Source: Tolypothrix carrinoi HA7290-LM1 (GTDB taxonomy: Bacteria > Cyanobacteriota > Cyanobacteriia > Cyanobacteriales > Nostocaceae). From it: a stretch of DNA of 37,658 bases. Positions 1-29,750 of the stretch are shown here, one piece after another. The translations under genes and the position numbers were made by a program. The stretch lies in assembly GCA_019358935.1 (NCBI GenBank), contig JAHHIK010000084.1, positions 1-37,658 of the forward strand, given 5' to 3'. How positions within the stretch are numbered: position 1 is the first letter of the stretch; each line of letters starts with the position of its first letter. The notes under the pieces were generated by a model. That model did not search any database. It had not been told where the DNA came from and was given only the letters and a program-made list of their open reading frames with translations.

Positions 1-116
1 AAGGCAATTTAGTTGTCATCTACAGGGGATTAAAGTGCGAACTCTATCCTTTTGAGGATTACCCTATAGAGGCTAATCATCCCCCGATTTCTCGGTTTAG
101 ATTAAACGAATCGCAC
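1..116 (-). mobile_element. Group II intron C, 5' end only (continues beyond left window edge), inserted in tnpB after codons ...S-T-K-T-C
   Basis: Minus strand reads ...TCT ACT AAA ACT TGT|GTGCGATTCGTTTAATC. GTGCGATTCGTT is the same 5' boundary seen at 2739 and 4738, and tnpB homology stops exactly here, at the first Cys of the zinc finger. Confidence 0.8.
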
Positions 117-345
117 ACAAGTTTTAGTAGACGGATACCATTGATCTATAAATATGACCCGCTTGCCTTTCTTTTTGGCAATCCACTCTAGAATTTGTAT
201 AAATTCTCCAAAAGCTAGGTCTGATATCTTGCGTCCCCTTCCTACGTTGCATTCCTTTGAGATTTAAGGTTTCAAAGCACAACACATCAAACTTATTAGT
301 TAGGTCGTGGGCTAGCTTCCAAAACCAATCACGTCTAGCATTAGA
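117..345 (-). pseudogene. tnpB: IS200/IS605 tnpB, exon 2 (between introns B and C), with an internal frameshift near 240
   Basis: Reads SNARRDWFWKLAHDLTNKFDVLCFETLNLKGMQR (RuvC-II Glu), then in a shifted frame GRKISDLAFGEFIQILEWIAKKKGKRVIFIDQWYPSTKTC. Confidence 0.85.
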
Positions 346-2739
346 ATTAAACTCAACGAGATTGTCACCAATCCCGTTGGTCTTCAAAACCGTGCGTAAC
401 AGTTTCCCGTTACACGGCTCCTCAACGGTGCGATGCTTGTCATACATACCTATTGCCATCTCTGGCAGTTTTCTCATCGTGGCAATGTCTGTGCAGAAGT
501 TGTAGGTTTTTATATACATCCTTTCCACCTTTCGATTTGGGGATGATATGGTCAACTTCCATTACATCATCTTCTCTAAAATACAATCCGCAATAGGCGC
601 ATTTCCCTTTTTGTTTTTTGAGTAGCAATGTTACTCTTGTTGGCAGTAAGGGGTTCTTGCCTTTTCTCTCACTCCAGTAGACTAGGTTTCCATCAAAGGG
701 AGAGGCTTTTCCTCTTACTTTAACGTGCCTCACGATTTCTGTCTTGGCGTGTTTCAGTAGGGTTGATGTAACTTTTCCCTCTTTGGTTGATGCGAATACC
801 CAATTGTCGTCGCCTCTTGTCTTCCAGTATTTAACTGAAATCCAATGCCCTGTTTTTCCGGGATGGCGGCGTTTTGCCCAGGATTGAAGCTTTTGAAATA
901 TTAGACGGTCAATATCTGAAAAGATTTCTTTGCTTATCACCATTGAGTAATAATTTGCCCATCCCCTGATTACAGGGTTTAGGCGCTTTATTAGAGCCTC
1001 TTGAGGGGCTGATTTATGAGCGTCGATGAGCCTACAGATTTCGTCGTAATGTCTCTTTATTGCCTTTACACTGGGTTTGATGAGTGTTTTAAATCCTAAT
1101 AATTTTCCTTGTGAGGATTTTCCAGATTGGGTTTTTCCTACTTTGTACTGTCTGATATTAAATCCGAGAAAGTCGAAGCCTTCTTGGGATTTTATATTAG
1201 GTTTTTGTAGGGTGTGACCTATTCTAGTTTTATTAGGTTTTAGTTCTAGTCCCATCTTTTCTAACCACGTAGATATTTCGGCTTTGCATCTTACGATTAC
1301 ATCGAGGTCAGGGTGTAAAATGACAAAATCATCGGCATATCTGATGAGGGATAGTGCTTTTTGATTAGATTTCTTATTTCCTGGCAAGGATTCGGCAATC
1401 TTGTTGATTTCCTCTTCCATTCCATGTAATGCGATGTTTGCTAGTAGAGGAGATATAACCCCACCCTGTGGCGTACCTTCATCTGTTTTTGACCATTCAC
1501 CGCCATCAAATACACCTGATTTTAACCATGCCTTAATTAGACGGTTTAGGGTTGGGAATGTATTGATTTTGGTTAGTAGTTTTTTGTGGTTGATTTTATC
1601 GAAGCATTTTGATATGTCGGCATCTAAAACCCATTTTGGTTTTTGTTTGATCTGACTGAATATTGCTCCGATAGCATCGTGGGCTGAACGTCCTGGTCGA
1701 AAGCCGTAGCTGTTAGGTTCAAACTTTGCTTCCCATTCTGATTCAAGTGCCAGTTTGACAAGCGCTTGTGTTGCCCTATCCTGCATTGTCGGTATCCCTA
1801 AAGGTCTTTTCTCCTCCGTTCCGGGCTTGGGAATCCAGACCCTTCTGGTGGCTTTTACCTTGTTGGTTAGCTTCAGGTTTACAATTAGGGTAATTCTTGC
1901 CTTAGATGTTAAGGATTTGACACCATCAACACCTGCGGTTTTCTTACCTTGGTTATCCTTTTGGACTTTGCGTACAGCTAGTGCTTTTGCTGACCATGAC
2001 CTCATCAAGGTCTTTTGGAGTCTGCGAACTGCCTTAGTATCACCACGAACAGAGGCTTGGAAAATTCTTTTCTGAAGCTTGAACACATGACGCTCTAGCT
2101 TTCGCCAGGGTATCAAGTTCCATTCCACCATCTGATTGTTCAGTGTTTTAGACATATATACTTCTTCTAAAAGACTTTTCCTTTCACACCATCGTGAGTA
2201 CGTCAGCATATCTTGACCATTACGGTCAAGCTTTCGCTTTTTACTCAATCTCTCCCACTACTGCATTCGGTTAGCACCTGCTTTGAGTGTTCGACCTCTC
2301 AAAGAGCTTAATAATGGGTTACTTCGTTCCGGGTGACAATTCTATGTATCTTTAGAGTGATGCTTTTCGCCGGGTTTATTGGGGGTGCATATTGGTCGGG
2401 ACATTATCCGCCAATCCCATATCCTTTACCTTTTGGTGTAGTGATTCAGCCTGATTGCACTACTTGTACGTAACGACGATTCAAACGCATCTTTAAGCCA
2501 AGGCTTTACTCATGGATACTTTGCTCGGTGGACACTGATTTAGGCTGTCAGTGGAGCCACCTTTCATCCCCGCTTTACGGATTGATGGCTAGTCGCTACC
2601 GTAGGGGAAGGGCTTTCACTCCTGCACTTGGAGGATAGGTTTTTCACCTACATTGTCATCCAGTTATCAAGGTTCAGTACCTTGTGGCTAATCCCTCTCC
2701 ACCTTTATTAGGCTTTGATTTCTAGCCAACGAATCGCAC
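346..2739 (-). mobile_element. Group II intron B (IIB/chloroplast-like class), apparently complete, 2394 nt
   Basis: 5' GTGCGATTCGTTGG at 2739. Domain V GAGCCGTGTAACGGGAAACTGTTACGCACGGTTT at 420-387, then domain VI ending ...GAGTTTAAT at 346. Removal joins ...AAG TAT GAG GAT ATT|TCT AAT GCT AGA (KYEDI-SNAR) in frame. Candidate EBS1 AAUGUC (2405-2400) pairs with IBS1 GAUAUU. Confidence 0.93.
440..2155 (-). CDS. ltrA: Group II intron-encoded reverse transcriptase/maturase with HNH endonuclease domain (~571 aa from MSKTL)
   Basis: RT0 KKTAGVDG, RPLGIPT, SYGFRPGRSAHDA, GTPQGGVISPLLANIAL, RYADDF, X domain LNPVIRGWANYY, C-terminal CAYC...EVDHIIP...NLQLLHRHCH. Uninterrupted ORF. Confidence 0.96.
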   Translation of the reverse strand: MSKTLNNQMVEWNLIPWRKLERHVFKLQKRIFQASVRGDTKAVRRLQKTLMRSWSAKALAVRKVQKDNQGKKTAGVDGVKSLTSKARITLIVNLKLTNKVKATRRVWIPKPGTEEKRPLGIPTMQDRATQALVKLALESEWEAKFEPNSYGFRPGRSAHDAIGAIFSQIKQKPKWVLDADISKCFDKINHKKLLTKINTFPTLNRLIKAWLKSGVFDGGEWSKTDEGTPQGGVISPLLANIALHGMEEEINKIAESLPGNKKSNQKALSLIRYADDFVILHPDLDVIVRCKAEISTWLEKMGLELKPNKTRIGHTLQKPNIKSQEGFDFLGFNIRQYKVGKTQSGKSSQGKLLGFKTLIKPSVKAIKRHYDEICRLIDAHKSAPQEALIKRLNPVIRGWANYYSMVISKEIFSDIDRLIFQKLQSWAKRRHPGKTGHWISVKYWKTRGDDNWVFASTKEGKVTSTLLKHAKTEIVRHVKVRGKASPFDGNLVYWSERKGKNPLLPTRVTLLLKKQKGKCAYCGLYFREDDVMEVDHIIPKSKGGKDVYKNLQLLHRHCHDEKTARDGNRYV

Positions 2740-3422
2740 AATATCCTCATACTTGCGTACTAAATTCTTTCTAGCCCGTTCTCGATTGGATGACCCTTTT
2801 AGCTTCTTGGAATGTTGTTTACTCGCTCTGTTAATGGTATTGAGAGACTGTTTAAGAAATTGGGGAGATTTAATACCGGAGCCATCAGAGCAGGTGAGGA
2901 ATGTCTTTAAGCCGAAGTCAAATCCCGCTATTCTACCAGACGTGAATTTGATTTCTGGTTCAACTACATCGTCAACTACGACAACTATAAACAACTCACC
3001 CAATGGTGTGCGTTTAATCGTTAATGTTTTAACTGTTCCCTCTATTTTTCTAGACTTCCAAAATTGATAAACTTTCTGCCCAATTTTGACCCGATTGCTA
3101 CTTAAAAATTTATACCCTGCTTGCTTAAGGGTGAATGATTTGTACTTCTTAACTTTCTTAAATCCTGGCGGACGAACCCCCTTCTTATTGTGTTTAAAAA
3201 ACAATTGGTATGCTTTCAAGGGTGCGTTGACAGATATCTTGCACTGCTTGAGAACCCACTAATTGCCAAAACTCTTTACGTTTCCGCAATTTGGCTATAT
3301 GAGATTGAAGTTTGGCACAACGAGCGGTGTTTACCCCACATCCGGTAGTACCGACGATGAAGGGCAATACAATGATTATAAATGACCCCAGCAGTGTTAA
3401 TCATCCGCTTGAGGCATCTATT
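2740..3422 (-). pseudogene. tnpB: IS200/IS605 tnpB, exon 1; 5'-truncated, with frameshifts near 3320 and 3220
   Basis: ORF 2722-3219 carries PPGFKK, RuvC-I GFDFGLK and RARKNLVRKYEDI. Upstream frames read NRCLKRMINTAGVIYNHCIALHRRYYRMWGKH and CAKLQSHIAKLRKRKEFWQLVGSQAVQDICQR. No start codon or IS left end is visible. Confidence 0.85.
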
Positions 3423-4201
3423 GTTCCGTCTGTTGACTTGTATTTGTGAATATTTTCGATACCATTGAGGGCGATGTTAGCTAAAAGGGGACTTATCACA
3501 CCGCCTTGGGGAGTTCCCTGTTCAGGAAACTCTGGGTTTGTACCCGCCTTGAGGCAGCGGAAGATACCTATTTTCATACCTGCTGGGGCTATGAGGTTAT
3601 CCATGATAGAGGTGTGATTTATCCTGTCGAAGCATTTCTCAATATCAAGTTCTATGACTCGTTTATTGATTCCGTTGCAACTGGAGTTTAGGTTGCTGAA
3701 TAGGATTTTCTGTGCATCATGTGCCGAACGTCCTGGTCTAAAACCATAGCTCTTTGCATGAAAGGTTGCTTCGTGTGCGGGTTCTAGTGCATATTTTGCT
3801 AGGCATTGCCAAGCTCTATCTGCGATAGTCGGGATTTTAAGCATCCTGGTAGAACCGTCCTTTTTAGGAATTGGTATACTCCGGAGTTTTCCGTGTATCC
3901 AGTTCTTCGCGGTTGCGCTTAACAGGTCTTCAAGCTCAAAGCGCTCCTTAGGAGTTAGTAGCTTTTTGCCGTCGATGCCTGCTGTCTTTTTACCTGCGTT
4001 TAGCTGAGTTACTTGACGGATTGCCAAAAATCTAGCCGCTTTGGACTTCAGAATAAGTCGTTGTAGAGACATCGCTTTCCGCTTGTCTCCTACTCGAATA
4101 GCTTTAAACACTCGACGTTGTAGGCGGAATAGGTTCTTCCGAAATTTCTTCCAGTTGAGGTTCTTCCAAGATTCGCTATAGTTTTCTATGCGTCCAATCA
4201 T
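3401..4201 (-). pseudogene. Group II intron A reverse transcriptase, truncated after RT4 (no YADD in window)
   Basis: GKKTAGIDGK, RMLKIPTIADR, SYGFRPGRSAHDAQ, ELDIEKCFDRI, GTPQGGVISPLLANIALNG; the frame then runs into tnpB sequence and stops. Confidence 0.9.
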
Positions 4202-4738
4202 GCTCTGACTCTGTTAAGTGTTTTCTGAATACCTTGCAGCAATTACGCCGCATCCTACCCGAATTAAAGGAATTCCGTATCTCGTCTTACCTACTTTGGG
4301 GTTCGACTATCCCAAGACCTTTAATTCGTTTTTATTCGTTCCCTCAGATGATTGGTTGTTCCGTTAGGTAGTGCCAATTTAACCATCAGACCCCCAGGTT
4401 CTTGCCGTTATTAACTAGACATTCGGCGGGGATTACTCTGATATAGTCGGGGTTACAAGATATGACCCGCTAAAGGCTGGGTTACTTTTCTAGGCATCTG
4501 TTTTACCGTGGGAACTCCCTATTAGCACCAGTGTCCACCCATAACGGTAGTCTGATTGTGCCCTGTCCCCAGCTTCACTCTACAAGTAACGAGCTTGTTC
4601 GGTGTGGGCAGATAAGGAGTCAAGCATGAACCTTGCTGGCAGGGCTTTCACCTGCATCAACCTGAGAGTTTAACTCCGTAGAGTTAGTTAGTATATGTAC
4701 GGACTGGATACCGTGATTCTACTAACAACGAATCGCAC
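3423..4738 (-). mobile_element. Group II intron A, 5' portion (domains I-IV and N-terminal RT), inserted in the dctQ 3' end
   Basis: ...TAAAGGC A GACTAG|GTGCGATTCGTTG at 4738. Candidate EBS1 CUAGUU (4418-4413, loop of a GCCG/CGGC stem) pairs with IBS1 GACUAG. Candidate EBS2 GCCUUUA (4477-4471) is the exact complement of exon UAAAGGC. Confidence 0.9.
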
Positions 4739-5258
4739 CTAGTCTGCCTTTAATAATCGCAAAATTTTTGATAGCCTCAGAAATTCCCTGAAAAATCAAC
4801 AATATACAGGCGACAATAATCATCGCTTTAATCGGGTAACGCGGCAATCCACCCGGATCGGGCGACGTTTCCAGAATTTGCCACGAAGCAGCGATCGTAT
4901 CCCAAGAAAAAATAATTACCATGATGCAGAAGGGAATCAGAAAAAATATTGTTCCCAGCAAATCTGCAACTGCCTTACGCTTAGGCTGCCAATTATTGTA
5001 AAAAATATCAACGCGGACGTGTTCGTTATGTTTGAGCGTGTAAGCCGCTCCTAACAAAAAAACTAAATCAAATATATACCATTGCGCCTCAATGTAAGCA
5101 TTAGAGGTAAGATTGCTGCCGATAATTCGCCCCAAGTATCGCCCAACAACATTCCACACGCCAAGTATGACCATGACTAGCACCAGCCAACTAGTAAGTC
5201 TACCAATGCGATCGTTACAAGCATCAATAATTCTAGAAATTTTTAACAGTTTTTCCAA
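4722..5258 (-). CDS. dctQ: TRAP transporter small permease subunit (DctQ family); last ~5 codons supplied by intron A
   Basis: Four hydrophobic segments, EAQWYIFDLVFLLGAAYTLKHNEHVRVDIFY motif, DPGGLPRYPIK. Confidence 0.88.
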   Translation of the reverse strand: MEKLLKISRIIDACNDRIGRLTSWLVLVMVILGVWNVVGRYLGRIIGSNLTSNAYIEAQWYIFDLVFLLGAAYTLKHNEHVRVDIFYNNWQPKRKAVADLLGTIFFLIPFCIMVIIFSWDTIAASWQILETSPDPGGLPRYPIKAMIIVACILLIFQGISEAIKNFAIIKGRLGAIRC

Positions 5259-5367: not shown

Positions 5368-5802
5368 TATACGGCAGTCCTAAATAGCTTTTGAACACCT
5401 ACTTTTCTTTCTTATCTTGGCGTACTTGGTATCTTCTCCTGTCGGAGACGCTGCGCTAAGGCGGTTCGTTATGAATTTTTTGTTGACAATCAACTATATA
5501 TAGTAATCCGTGCAGGAGTTATGATATAGCAATTCTCACTTGCGTCAAATACCCAAACTGATAGTAGGGACAATTCATGAATTGTCCAAGAGTGCGTATT
5601 GTTGTGTATTGCATCTAACTGAAAACCGCTATATTCTTTTAAACGTAGAGGCGTTGGCGGTAGCCTGCGGCAAGCCGCAGGCTAGCCTCAAGGGAGAGAA
5701 GCGGCTTGCACTTCTGCTACCGCAAAGACGTTCGCCTTGGTCTCCAACAAAAGAAGAAAAAAAGATGCAGAGACTTTTCCTAAATGATTTATAACTGCTA
5801 TA
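5368..5802. mobile_element. Cluster of nested/degenerate TA-flanked MITEs with embedded small hairpin repeats
   Basis: Inner element 5525-5633 has imperfect TIRs TATAGCAATTCTCA.../...TGAAAACCGCTATA and a central GTAGGGACAATTCATGAATTGTCC hairpin. Outer ends resemble TA(C/T)GGCAGTCCTAAAT (5368) and TAAATGATTTATAACTGCTATA (~5781-5802). Palindrome TAGCCTGCGGCAAGCCGCAGGCTA at ~5661-5684. Confidence 0.55.
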
Positions 5803-5816
5803 TTTTAATAAAAAAG

Positions 5817-5856
5817 ACCCATAAATAATCGTTTTTGTGTGAGATTATTTATGGGT
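5817..5856 (-). terminator. Intrinsic terminator of the lectin gene
   Basis: 14-bp stem ACCCATAAATAATC / GATTATTTATGGGT followed by a T-run on the minus strand, ~25 bp after the stop at 5883. Confidence 0.65.
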
Positions 5857-6433
5857 TATCGATGTCTTGACATAGAAGAATATTATCTCTCTTCTTCTCT
5901 CACAAAAATATTCCTCAAAACCCATTTACTCCAGTCTTTACCATTAAGTTTGGTTTGCCAAGCTTGATATAACTTTTGACCGTAACCGACTCCAAATATC
6001 GTCAATCTACCATCCTGATTTTGGCTAACTTTAAGATTCTTACTAATTTGCTCGGTAAAATCTTGCCATTTGCCCCATTTACCATTAGGTTCAGTTTGTG
6101 CAACTCGATATGCTTTTTTATCAGTACTAATTGCAAAAGCTTCTAGTCTACCATCTGGATTTTGAGCTACTGCTAAAGTTTTCGCAACTCCACGAGAAAG
6201 ATTGTCCCATTTACTCCAATTGTTACTATTGATTGTGGTTTGCCAAATATGATATGCCTTATCATCAGTACCAACTACAAAAACTTCTAATCTGCCATCT
6301 TTGTTTGGAGCTACTGTTACACTTTTAGCAGTTCCATCAGCAAGACTGTCCCATTTACTCCAATCCTTACTATTAAGTGTAGTTTGCCAAGCATGATAGA
6401 CTTTGTTATCAGTACCAATTGCAAAAACTTCTA

Positions 6434-7758
6434 GTACAGGGTGGCGGAAATAAACCGACCATTTTTGTGAGAGACTAAGTAAGAAGGGTGAAAACTTTTA
6501 TAGATAGTTTTTAAGGAATCAGGGTGTGGCAAGGTTAGCTCCAAAATCATTAGAATTGCTGTGTGGTGAACGGGACGAACTGGAACATTTACTCAAAAGG
6601 CACAGTACACCACAGCAAATCGGACTACGAGCAAAAATTATTCTACTTGCTTGGGAGGGCAAAAATAACCGTGACATTGCTCGAACGTTGAATATTAGTA
6701 GAGATATGGCTCGGACGTGGCGAAACCGATGGTTAGAATTAGGCGATCGCCAATTACCAGTGATGAAAAAATTGAGCGATGCAGAACGGGGTGGGGCACC
6801 TGCAAAATTTAGTATGGAGCAAGTAATTGAGTTGTTCGCGCTTGCATGTTCGCTACCCGAAGACTATGGACGACCAATAAGTCATTGGACAGCAAGAGAA
6901 CTGGCGGACGAAATCATCAAACAAGGCATTATTGAAAGCATATCAGTCCGTCATGTTAAAAGATTATTAGAAGAAGCAGAACTTAAACCCCACTCCTCGT
7001 CGCTACTGGTTAACACTGAACTGAGGACGAAGAATTTGACGCAAAAGTTGAAGATATTACTAGTTTGTACATCAGTGCAATTGAACGTTACAAAAACGGA
7101 GAGCGTACAATGTCCATTGATGAAATGACGGGTATTCAAGCTACTGAGCGTCTAGAAAAAGACTTACCGATACGACCAGGTAAGGTTGAAAAAAGAGAGT
7201 TTGAGTACATTCGTCACGGTACACAAAGCTTAATTACCAGCTTCGATGTTGCCACTGGTCAAATTGTTGAACCCAAATGTGGAGATTCAAGAACAGAAGT
7301 TGATTTTGTCCTTCATGTTCGTCGAGTTCTAGACAGTGACCTTCATGCGATAAAATGGCATTTAATTATGGACTGTCTTAACACTCATCAGTCTGAGTCC
7401 TTAGTTCGTCTTGTTGCTGAAAAAGAAGGTTTAGACATCGACCTTGGCATTAAGGGTGAAAGTGGCATCCTCAAATCGATGAAATCTCGTGCAGCTTTTT
7501 TGAGTGACCCAACACACCGAATCGTTTTTCATTACACGCCCAAGCATTCTTCTTGGCTCAACCAAATTGAGATTTGGTTCAGTATTTTGGTTCGCAAGTT
7601 ACTTAAGCGTGCCAGCTTCAAGAGTCAGAATGATCTGAAAACTCGAATCCTTGATTTTATTGACTATTTTAACAAAACAATGGCTAAACCTTTTAAGTGG
7701 ACGTATAAGGGTAAAGTATTGGCTATTTAATAGTTGGCTTATTTACGCCGTGCCGTAC
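6434..7758 (+). mobile_element. IS630-family insertion sequence, 1325 bp, TA target duplication
   Basis: Imperfect TIRs GTACAGGGTGGCGGAAATAAACCGAC / revcomp GTACGGCACGGCGTAAATAAGCCAAC. TA at 6432-33 and 7759-60. The empty site AACTTCTAGTCTGCCATC matches the sister repeat at 8041. Confidence 0.93.
6526..7730 (+). pseudogene. IS630 transposase (HTH ORF 6526-~7010, DDE ORF ~7025-7730); junction appears damaged
   Basis: N-terminal HTH (RAKIILLA...WRNRW...HWTARELA) and DDE residues in [12 protein letters not shown] and SSWLNQIE. The linker RYWLT lies in a third frame ending in TGA, so two frame changes are needed. Confidence 0.8.
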
Positions 7759-8548
7759 TAGTCTGCCATCTTGATTGGGAACTAATGTTAGGTTATCAGC
7801 AATGCCACGAGAAAGATCGTCCCATTTACTCCATTCTTCGCTGTTGGGTTTAGTTTGGTGAGCGTAATAAACCTTATCATCAGTACCGATCGCCACAACT
7901 TCTAATCTACCATCTTTATTTGCAGCTACTGCCAAACTTTTCGCAATCCCACTCCTAAGGCTTTTTAATGGACTCCAATCTTTGCCATTAACCGTGGTTT
8001 GCCGAGCATGGTAAACTTTTTTATCGTTACCAATTGTAAAAACTTCTAGTCTACCATCTTGATTAGAAGCTACTGTCAGACTTTTAGCAGTTTGATTTGA
8101 AAGACTTTGCCAATCACTCCAATCTTCGCCATTCGGTGTATTTTGCCAAGCATGATGAATATTATCATCAGTGTCAATTACAAAAGCTTCTAATCTACCA
8201 TCTTGATTTTGACTAATTGCTAGGCTACCTGTGACGCGATTTAAGTCTAACTGAGTAAAAATCGTATTTGCTTGAGTAGATTCTTGTAGATTCGCCATTT
8301 AAACCTCCTAAATCTCTATTAAATGAGAGATGAATAAATAAAGAATGACAATTTTTATCTCTGCCTTTTATTTAATAGGCTTAATCGCAATCAAATTATG
8401 CAGTTTATCGTAGCGTCCACCTTTGCATCTATCTAAAGTAGTTTTTTGCATGAAACGCGCTGCAAACAAGATCCCCCCATCTCTAATAAAAGCGATCGCT
8501 TGTGCTTTCAACGCGATAAAATTCTCAAGCACAACGCACTCCACAGCT

Positions 8549-9382: not shown

Positions 9383-10874
9383 ACTACCCACACTGACCCA
9401 GAGTACCGGGTACAGTGTCGGCTTCTGTACTCAATGGCGAGTGCCTCAGATGCGACTTTCGCCCCATCTTTGGTCTTACCTCCCCTCCTACAGCAGGGAC
9501 GGCTGAACCATCCGCCCTTAGCATTCTGATTCCTTCTGCTCTAATGTTGATGGCTGCATTACCATCTCTGTCATGATGAGTGCCGCAATGAGGGCAAGTC
9601 CATTCCCTCACATCTAGTGGCATTTCACTTACTTGATAGAAACAATTAGAGCAAAGCTTGGAACTGGGGAACCATCTATCTATCTCAACCAACTTTGCAC
9701 CTTTGCGTTCTAGCTTGTAGGCTAAAAAGTTGGTGAATGTTCCCCATCCACAATCAGATACCGCTTTTGCCAATTTATGATTACGAACCATGCCCTTGAC
9801 ATGAAGGTTTTCTACCATGACAGCTTGGCTATCGCTGACCAACTTATAACTTGCGTTTGTGTAGAAAATCTTGCCGCGAATTGCTAACTCGTTCGTACAC
9901 CTTGGCAACAACTTTTCTATATCTATGCCGCGAATTACTTCCTTTTTGTTTACGAGCTAATTTTTGTTGTTTGCGTTTTAGATTTTTTTCGTGTTTAGCA
10001 AAATGTTTAGGATTGTCGTACTTTGACACTTTTTCGCCGTCAGTGACGACTGCAAAATGCTTTAGTCCTAAATCAATCCCATAAATCTTGCCTTCTGTCG
10101 CAGCCGGGTTTTCCCCTTCTATTTCGGTCAGAATGGATGCAAAATACTTGCCTGATGGAGTCTTGCTAACAGTAACAGTTTTAATTTTCCCCGAAATTGG
10201 TCTATGTATCTTGGCTTTGACTATCCCAATATTGCCTGGAAGTTTGACAAGGGAGCCATCCACGATTTTGACTTTTGAGGATACTGAATAGACTGCCTAC
10301 CGTGCTTAGACTTGAACCGAGGAAAGCCTGCGCGTTTATCAAAAAAGTTTTTGTATGCTGTGGTCAGGTTAAGTGTTGTAGCTTGTAAAACTTGGCTATA
10401 ACAATCAGACAGCCATGCAGTATTTTCTGCTTTTTTGAGTGCTGGAAGAAGTGCATTGAGTGCTGAACGTCCAAGTCCTTTGCCAGTTTGCTTGTAAGTC
10501 TCAATAGATTTATTTAGCGCATAGTTCCACCACCAGCGGGCAGAACCAAACGTTTGGGCTAAGAGTATTTGTTGCTCTTTGGATGGATATAAACGAACTT
10601 GTACAACTTTGTGCAACACTCAATATCACCTCCTTGATTTTTTATTTTATCGCAATATACAGTTATTGATAAAAATGTTCCGGACAAATTTGGCAATTCC
10701 TCGCGACGTGTACGTCTGAGTGAGTATTCTGTCCGTCGAACCGTCGCTATCGACCAACATTCCTAATTGAACTGTGTTCAATGTCGGTCGTTGGTCAATT
10801 CGTCATTGCCCACCTTATATCCCGCCACTGCCGATCAAAGACGGAATACAGTGGGGGACGAGGGCGTGTGAGAG
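9379..10874 (-). mobile_element. IS200/IS605-family (tnpB-only, IS1341-like) element, 1496 bp
   Basis: Right end ...GGGTAGTTCAC (9379) preceded by hairpin CACTGTACCC..GGGTCAGTG. Left end abuts TTTAA (minus strand, 10879-10875). No TSD. Excision restores menB ...CTT CCT TAA plus its terminator. Confidence 0.88.
9384..10619 (-). pseudogene. tnpB: TnpB RNA-guided nuclease, split into three frames (frameshifts near 10275 and 9855)
   Basis: VRLYP HTH start with AGGAGGTG RBS, GFPRFKSK, RuvC-I GIDLG, RuvC-II VENL, zinc finger CSNC/CPHC, RuvC-III DRDGNAAINI. Confidence 0.92.
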
Positions 10875-29689: not shown

Positions 29690-29696
29690 GATGAAT

Positions 29697-29745
29697 GGTA
29701 GATGCACCCTGGTTAAGCCCTAGAGAAAACTCTGGGGCATTTTTT
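29697..29745 (+). ncRNA. nsiR1: NsiR1-like small RNA, single copy
   Basis: 5' GGTAGATGCACCCTG matches my recollection of the NsiR1 conserved 5' end; DIF1 promoter upstream; terminator GCCCTAGAG-AAAA-CTCTGGGGC-ATTTTTT. Confidence 0.7.
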
Positions 29746-29750
29746 ATTTT

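What the first reader, a model, noticed from the sequence alone, without database searches (positions are those of the whole stretch)
1..4738. Russian-doll mobile element: three different group II introns and a tnpB stacked inside a TRAP transporter gene
Seen: three GTGCGATTCGTT 5' boundaries on the minus strand (4738, 2739, 116). Intron A enters dctQ, its RT breaks into tnpB at ~3422, and that tnpB is itself interrupted by introns B and C. RT-A and RT-B are clearly different proteins. Known: group II introns favour mobile DNA and can form twintrons. Inference: a multi-level nest, dctQ > intron A > IS605/tnpB > introns B and C, all in the same orientation. One transcript from the dctQ promoter would therefore face a splicing cascade before any downstream dctM is reached.
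Basis: partly seen in the sequence, partly recalled or inferred. Interest (0 to 1): 0.85.

Follow-up and report, generated by a model that had tools for sequence, protein, structure and literature searches.

The report
Introns and transposon wreck transporter operon
Three self-splicing introns and a small transposon really do lie side by side here, but not as one nest: one intron landed in a transporter gene, a transposon carrying two more introns landed in a neighbouring gene, and a deletion most likely fused the two, which is ordinary decay of mobile DNA.

Summary
The three intron starts, the two different reverse transcriptases and the split tnpB are real. The four-level nest is not supported. 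The window ends at a contig end inside intron C. Contig C66 holds a matching intron 3' end, the last tnpB piece and the IS right end, which joins directly to dctP codon 255 at a TTAC target, with no intron A 3' half. At window 3422/3423, intron A's RT meets tnpB codon 14, with no IS left end. dctM was not found in the assembly, which holds only contigs of 10 kb or more. Best reading: intron A entered dctQ, a tnpB-only IS200/IS605 element entered dctP, introns B and C homed into that tnpB, and a ~3 kb deletion fused the two sites. No splicing cascade to dctM follows. A nest hidden on a lost small contig remains possible (about 12%). Side result: 11 of 23 intron 3' ends found in this genome lie in tnpB genes, at six different sites. 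Introns in IS605 elements are published, and this scan has noted them on other DNA.

The parts
4739..5258 (-). dctQ (TRAP small permease), 5' 173 codons. Unspliced, it ends with 5 intron-derived residues in place of 11 native ones
   Evidence: Pfam DctQ E 4e-21; 94% identical to intact DctQ of G003 and G006; tail compared
3423..4738 (-). Intron A: 5' 1316 nt of a group II intron; its YADD motif, maturase domain and DV/DVI are missing
   Evidence: 71-79% identical to the 5' ~1300 nt of six full-length relatives, e.g. the ~2.25-kb intron on C51; no YADD in its ORF
4413..4418 (-). EBS1 candidate of intron A, in a hairpin loop, complementary to the last 6 nt of the dctQ exon
   Evidence: Only full 6-nt complement in the first 600 nt of the intron; folds in a loop
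3423..4201 (-). Truncated RT-A, cut just before the YADD motif; the frame runs on to a stop at 3401 in tnpB DNA
   Evidence: RVT_N and partial RVT_1; TIGR04416 positions 6-200 of 353, below cut-off; relatives continue ...IIEPSIRYADD
3417..3422 (-). Deletion junction between intron A and tnpB codon 14; the six bases AATAGA fit both parents (microhomology inferred from relatives)
   Evidence: Intact IS copies align from 3422/3423 on; the RT-A relative L101 has the same six bases at the matching codons; one unitig spans the junction
2740..3422 (-). tnpB piece 1 (codons 14-240), with +1 frameshifts near 3327 and 3222
   Evidence: 78-88% identical to 14 IS copies from six relatives; indels; NF038281 IS200_TnpB E 3e-24, below cut-off
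346..2739 (-). Intron B: complete 2394-nt group II intron, inserted between RKYEDI and SNARRDW without loss or gain of bases
   Evidence: Flanking pieces are adjacent in intact IS copies, e.g. L037 1924|1925; RF00029 52 bits; DV/DVI fold
2399..2405 (-). EBS1 candidate of intron B, in a hairpin loop, pairing 7 nt with its 5' exon
   Evidence: Two other 7-nt complements (G-U allowed) lie earlier in the intron; only this one fell in the range that was folded
440..2155 (-). RT-B: intact 571-aa RT/maturase/HNH protein
   Evidence: RVT_N, RVT_1, GIIM, HNH; TIGR04416 over cut-off; YADD present
117..345 (-). tnpB piece 2 (codons 241-316), with a +1 frameshift near 243
1..116 (-). Intron C, first 116 nt, cut by the contig end. 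Outside the window, on G000:C66 (minus strand): intron 3' end 48294-48169, tnpB piece 3 and IS right end 48168-47952, then dctP codons 1-255 on the plus strand (47186-47950)
   Evidence: PF07282 is split into positions 1-33 on C84 and 32-60 on C66. A sibling in G072 matches both ends at 99% and 97.6% at the same tnpB site

Best explanation
Two separate insertions and one deletion destroyed a dispensable TRAP transporter locus (dctQ>dctM> <dctP) of a heterocyst-forming cyanobacterium. (1) Intron A retrohomed into the dctQ tail (site and EBS1-IBS1 match shown; the event is inferred). (2) A tnpB-only IS200/IS605 element inserted into dctP 3' of a TTAC target, facing the same way as dctQ (right-end junction and target shown; mobilisation by a TnpA in trans inferred). 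(3) Introns B and C each homed into that tnpB in the sense orientation (precise junctions shown; site C recurs in three other genomes). (4) A deletion of about 3 kb, probably through a 6-bp microhomology, removed intron A's 3' half, the dctQ tail, dctM, the dctP 3' third, the IS left end and tnpB codons 1-13 (inferred). The order of steps 1-3 is not known. Result: intron A cannot splice, the IS cannot excise, TnpB is broken in four places and the transporter is lost. Intron B looks intact and could be transcribed by read-through from the dctQ promoter (inferred, not tested).
For: G003 and G006 have intact dctQ-dctM-dctP; in G000 the genes on one side map to C84 and those on the other to C66. 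dctP on C66 stops at codon 255 and is followed directly by the IS right end ending TCAA. The same spot in G003 and G006 reads TTAC|GGTTAAC; 9 of 10 intact copies with a recognisable left end (of 14 fetched) follow TTAC; TTAC occurs at 0.0047 per position; IS608 uses TTAC and TCAA (PMC3201880, passages). The three tnpB pieces tile intact copies with no gap or overlap (L037: 1243-1924, 1925-2152, 2153-2370). Full-length or two-ended intron C relatives at the same site match both contig ends (G072; L092). The only homologues of this tnpB in the assembly are on C84 and C66. No DctM by tblastn or PF06808, while 8 of 14 control genomes ring; of the 1871-1958 bp between the two sites in relatives only intergenic repeats match G000. 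One of 22 intact copies (L045, a congener) has the same 28 nt across site C as C84 plus C66.
Against: The C84-C66 link is inferred, not read. Contig-end lengths fit a k=127 assembly in which intron C is a repeat starting 11 nt into its 5' exon, and the X1 unitig also starts at 98; this implies a second intron C copy at the same kind of site on unseen DNA. The test of whether piece 3 belongs to the same IS copy was weak: rho 0.74, reached by 27% of same-copy and 8% of different-copy pairs, about 3:1. Contigs under 10 kb are absent, so 'no dctM' means not found. The microhomology rests on relatives about 80% identical. No expression data.
Confidence: 0.8

Rival explanations
1. One IS copy sits in intron A and a second, diverged copy sits in dctP; both carry intron C, and a small unassembled contig between them holds intron A's 3' half, the dctQ tail and dctM.
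For: A second intron C copy at the same kind of site is implied by the contig-end arithmetic and the unitig start. Contigs under 10 kb are missing, and the middle piece would be about 4-7 kb. One Nostoc MAG has this intron in two different IS copies (L091, L093).
Against: It needs two IS insertions within 3 kb, two intron C insertions and still a deletion at 3422, since the left end and 13 codons are gone. Depth over 2854-3487 in X1 is 503.6, the value of a single unitig, so no second copy 90% or more alike was laid there. The profile test and the L045 haplotype lean to one copy.
Confidence: 0.12
2. The junction at 3422 is an assembly chimera between two repeats.
For: The genome is rich in introns and tnpB copies. 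Run X1 may be the source sample, so it is not independent DNA.
Against: A separately assembled unitig covers 2577-4195 with 0 differences at depth 504 against 498-545 for neighbours. Neither side of the junction has a close second copy in the assembly. Synteny of the two contigs fits.
Confidence: 0.03
3. The IS arrived in dctP already loaded with introns B and C, as a composite of about 6 kb moved by TnpA, instead of gaining them in place.
For: The right-end junction is a clean TnpA-type joint, and G000 has 7 Y1 transposase matches. PMC4810608 (supplement passage) lists two near-identical IS605 copies with an intron at the same position.
Against: Elsewhere the same intron sits in different, diverged tnpB copies (L091 vs L093; one intron type in four different tnpB genes of G000), which points to homing after insertion. 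No second loaded copy was seen. This changes only the order of events.
Confidence: 0.15

Closest known systems
[quoted passage not shown] PCC 7107 (Kapitonov et al. 2016, PMC4810608; passages of main text and of supplement file 1 read)
   Same: RT-HNH group II intron inside an IS200/IS605 element of a filamentous cyanobacterium
   Different: Here two different introns sit in one tnpB, the element has no tnpA and is decayed. I did not see their Fig. S9 sites, so I cannot say whether sites B or C are among them; supplement file 2 was not searchable
TeI3 family F4 introns at a conserved site of ISEL1 (IS200 family) in Thermosynechococcus elongatus (Mohr et al. 2010, PMC2882425; passages)
   Same: Intron lineage that homes to a conserved site in a multicopy IS; named there as a route to intron proliferation
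   Different: Those introns lack an ORF; here intron B has an intact ORF, and six intron types use six different tnpB sites in one genome
Group II twintrons of T. elongatus and nested arrays of Methanosarcina acetivorans (PMC2882425 passages)
   Same: Several introns in one orientation in a short stretch
   Different: No intron here is shown to lie inside another: B and C are in tandem in tnpB, and A is joined to them by a deletion
IS608 of Helicobacter pylori (PMC3201880; passages)
   Same: TTAC target, TCAA right cleavage site, hairpins near both ends, no target duplication
   Different: This element's intact relatives show no tnpA next to tnpB in the stretch inspected; this copy has lost its left end
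IStrons (PMC4227781; search listing and abstract start only)
   Same: Intron and IS200/IS605-type DNA combined
   Different: IStrons are group I intron-IS chimeras whose splicing makes the insertion harmless to the host gene; here group II introns lie inside tnpB and nothing restores dctP

Membership tests
Mobile group II intron (B) | 5' GUGYG start and DV/DVI ending in AY | tested here: met
Mobile group II intron (B) | Intact RT/maturase ORF with YADD | tested here: met
   TIGR04416 348 bits vs cut-off 300; YADD
Mobile group II intron (B) | Precise insertion and EBS1-IBS1 pairing | tested here: met
   no full 6-nt EBS2 complement was found (5 nt only)
Mobile group II intron (B) | Splicing or retrohoming activity | not testable with these tools
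   No RNA holder listed
Mobile group II intron (A) | Complete ribozyme with DV/DVI and complete RT | tested here: not met
   Cut at 3423, no YADD, no 3' end followed by the dctQ tail among 23 found. It is a remnant
Mobile group II intron (C) | 5' start, DV/DVI and precise insertion | tested here: met
   116 nt on C84, 126 nt on C66 with RF00029 57.5 bits; exons adjacent in intact copies
Mobile group II intron (C) | Intact ORF and EBS1 | not testable with these tools
   Middle is not in the assembly; in relative L092 EBS1 pairs 8 nt with the same site
IS200/IS605 element | Right end with hairpin and TCAA, inserted 3' of a fixed tetranucleotide without duplication | tested here: met
IS200/IS605 element | Left end present | tested here: not met
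   Lost at the 3422 junction; present in intact relatives
IS200/IS605 element | Intact TnpB | tested here: not met
   Codons 1-13 missing and three +1 frameshifts against three reference copies
Twintron / nested intron | Inner element lies between the 5' and 3' ends of an outer intron | tested here: not met
   Outer 3' half not found after the IS right end; caveat of missing small contigs
IStron | Group I intron chimera whose splicing makes the IS insertion harmless to the host gene | tested here: not met
   Introns are group II and lie inside tnpB; only Intron_gpII matched in this part of the window

The most novel reading that the evidence does not exclude
In these cyanobacteria tnpB genes are a main, shared landing ground for group II introns: several unrelated intron lineages have each tuned their exon-binding sites to a different conserved TnpB motif and spread between diverged IS copies by homing. 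TnpB protein (and, for the 3' sites, its guide RNA) would then depend on splicing in many copies, so introns would act as a brake on RNA-guided IS maintenance. Basis: 11 of 23 intron 3' ends (6 of 17 types) in G000 lie in tnpB, which is 0.68% of the assembly; site C recurs in three other genomes, one a Microcoleus. Against: only 4 of 30 hits examined in five relatives; survival in neutral multicopy DNA could give the same pattern; this copy's TnpB is dead regardless.
Probability: 0.25. Interest if true: 0.6.

Novelty: new member of a known kind. Interest (0 to 1): 0.3.

Why it matters
As a locus it shows how mobile elements remove a dispensable operon: two insertions, then a deletion that makes unrelated elements look nested. 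It is a warning for reading 'Russian dolls' from sequence order alone. The wider pattern, with about half of one genome's introns in tnpB at six sites, would give a ready test of whether introns specialise on TnpB motifs and whether splicing gates TnpB. The habit itself is already reported.

Tried and rejected
Four-level nest: rejected on the C66 junction, with the small-contig caveat. Chimeric assembly at 3422: not supported. Site B in other genomes: no match spanned the exon-intron join in 300 family genomes, and a degenerate pattern found 0 in metagenome contigs; it looks like a one-off in those searched. Site C pattern over 400 phylum genomes gave only one 2-mismatch hit, not examined and probably chance (control also 1); the all-species scan gave 3. 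A pre-deletion allele (intron A in dctQ with its 3' half) was not found: the dctQ-tail pattern gave 3 metagenome-collection hits, 2 intact alleles (not shown to be independent of the relatives already seen) and 1 unrelated. No RNA holder listed. Runs X2, X6 and X8 hold only short related pieces and were not used as evidence about this strain. The identity-profile test was weak. Intron classes (CL1/CL2) were not assigned. No structure or complex prediction was run. Papers PMC8919778, PMC7923331 and PMC10055086 (passages) said nothing on introns inside tnpB in the passages seen.
Full report
Setting. The window is the whole contig C84 of genome G000 (7.96 Mb, 184 contigs). The smallest contig is 10,054 bp. 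An NsiR1 match fits a heterocyst-forming cyanobacterium (that link is recalled). Position 1 is a contig end, so the continuation had to be sought on other contigs.

Observation. The three GTGCGATTCGTT starts are exact, at 4738, 2739 and 116 on the minus strand. Intron B is complete (2739-346) with DV/DVI and an intact 571-aa RT-maturase-HNH ORF. RT-A is a different protein (112 of 253 residues identical) and stops just before YADD. tnpB sequence begins at 3422 and is cut by B and C. Hairpin-loop EBS1 candidates pair with the 5' exons of A (6 nt) and B (7 nt).

The host locus. Of 30 relatives searched, 12 have a DctQ match, 2 of 10 in the genus. G003 and G006 have dctQ>dctM> <dctP intact. In G000 the genes beyond dctQ are on C84 and the genes beyond dctP are on C66. 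DctM was not found by tblastn or PF06808, which rang in 8 of 14 control genomes. Of the 1871-1958 bp that separate the two insertion sites in relatives, only intergenic repeats match G000.

What follows intron C. The end of C66, read on the minus strand, gives 126 nt of an intron 3' end (RF00029, 57.5 bits), then a tnpB Zn-finger piece, an IS right end ending TCAA, and then dctP at codon 255 on the other strand. The three tnpB pieces tile intact IS copies with no base gained or lost at either intron (L037: 1243-1924, 1925-2152, 2153-2370). In the closed genome G072 an intron matching both ends (99% over 99 nt, 97.6% over 126 nt) sits at the same tnpB site; its middle is replaced by an ISAs1-like transposase gene (my recognition of the translation). 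L092 (Microcoleus) has a 2496-nt relative there, and L091 and L093 (one Nostoc MAG) have its 5' end in two different IS copies.

Where the IS inserted. In G003 and G006 the dctP site reads TTAC|GGTTAAC on the IS strand, and G000 has TCAA|GGTTAAC. Nine of the 10 intact copies whose left end my pattern recognised (14 fetched) follow TTAC, one with a 1-nt offset; the tenth follows TTAG. TTAC occurs at 0.0047 per position. IS608 inserts 3' of TTAC and has TCAA as right cleavage site (PMC3201880, passages). So this right end is a true insertion joint in dctP.

The 3422 junction. Intact copies have a left end about 250 nt upstream and 13 more codons; both are absent. The bases AATAGA at 3422-3417 fit tnpB codons 14-15 and also the matching codons of an RT-A relative (L101), so a microhomology deletion is likely, though the parents are not available. 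One unitig of run X1 covers 2577-4195 with 0 differences at depth 504, like its neighbours; X1 may be the source sample. tnpB also carries three +1 frameshifts (near 3327, 3222, 243) against three reference copies. The missing DNA adds up to about 3 kb: ~1.9 kb host, ~0.9 kb intron A (from the 2.25-kb relative on C51) and ~0.25 kb IS.

Against this reading. The C84-C66 link is inferred. Contig-end lengths fit a k=127 assembly (for example C56 and C145 hold 119 nt of one intron and share 8 exon bases). By that rule intron C is a repeat that starts 11 nt into its 5' exon and ends 1 nt into its 3' exon, and the X1 unitig start at 98 agrees. A second intron C copy in a diverged tnpB therefore probably exists on unseen DNA. 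If it lay between C84 and C66, a lost small contig could hold intron A's 3' half and dctM. An identity-profile test over 22 intact copies (25 examined, 3 duplicates dropped) gave rho 0.74, reached by 27% of same-copy and 8% of 436 different-copy pairs; one congener copy has the same 28 nt across the site as C84 plus C66. This leans towards one copy but is not decisive. I put the hidden nest at about 12%.

Mechanism. Shown: the three intron 5' junctions, the B and C 3' junctions, the IS right-end joint, the broken TnpB. Inferred: retrohoming of A, B and C; transposition by a TnpA in trans (7 Y1 matches in G000; most tnpB genes lack a nearby tnpA, PMC10055086 passage); the deletion; the order. 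Intron A has no catalytic domain left, and no dctM lies downstream in this reading, so there is no cascade that restores the transporter. B and C lie in tandem, in the sense orientation, and could splice independently if transcribed; no RNA run was listed.

Wider pattern. RF00029 finds 23 intron 3' ends in G000 (150 of 493 candidates scored). Eleven are followed by tnpB sequence in the sense orientation. They fall into 6 of 17 end types and map to six positions of TnpB, including the EDLN and RDxNAA motifs, while tnpB-like DNA is 0.68% of the assembly. One type sits in four different tnpB genes, which points to homing on a conserved motif. In five relatives only 4 of 30 hits examined (of 49 listed, some not true ends) had a tnpB 3' exon. 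Purifying selection against insertions in useful genes could explain part of this.

Known systems. Group II introns in IS605 elements of Nostocales were reported by Kapitonov et al. 2016 (PMC4810608; main-text passages and two supplement passages read; supplement file 2 not searchable, Fig. S9 not seen, so their sites may include these). Intron families at a conserved IS site are described for T. elongatus (PMC2882425, passages). My searches listed no paper devoted to two introns in one tnpB or to a map of such sites, but the library lacks most subscription journals. Earlier notes of this scan describe single introns in tnpB on other genomes; they are AI notes and are not used as support.

Verdict. 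Real features, wrong architecture. A decayed locus of known kinds of element; interest 0.3, mostly for the double occupancy of one tnpB and the genome-wide pattern.

Noticed in passing
G000 contigs C27, C123, C146, C151, C65, C93, C70, C125, C31, C66, C84: 11 of 23 group II intron 3' ends found lie in tnpB genes: one type at the EDLN..|..NH motif (4 copies in tnpB, 1 elsewhere), one at RD|ENAA (2), one at the helix before the second RuvC motif (2), one just after the first RuvC motif, plus B and C
   Followed up: partly
L071 (G072:C1:3834579-3836466): Intron C sibling at the same tnpB site whose middle is replaced by an ISAs1-like transposase gene (recognised from the translation, no family search); its tnpB also appears cut at the 5' side
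   Followed up: partly
L073, L076, L077, L080, L081, L082, L088: More distant intron relatives whose 5' exons translate as TnpB C-terminal or EDLN motifs; L077's site confirmed by blastp of its 3' exon (L141)
   Followed up: partly
window 5419-8489: 3071-bp stretch absent from G003 between dctQ and the next conserved gene: a beta-propeller lectin-like gene split by an IS630-like element (6526-7730); run X8 shows the empty site as a 6430-7758 joint
   Followed up: partly
window 9384-10619: A second, frameshifted tnpB of another subfamily
   Followed up: no
L037-L045, upstream of tnpB: Intact copies of the IS carry about 170 conserved bases between the left hairpin and tnpB, which may encode a small divergent DNA-binding protein (read by eye)
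   Followed up: no
G000:C67 204-3173: Two RT matches close together, possibly one intron inside another
   Followed up: no
window 29696-29746: NsiR1 small RNA match
   Followed up: no
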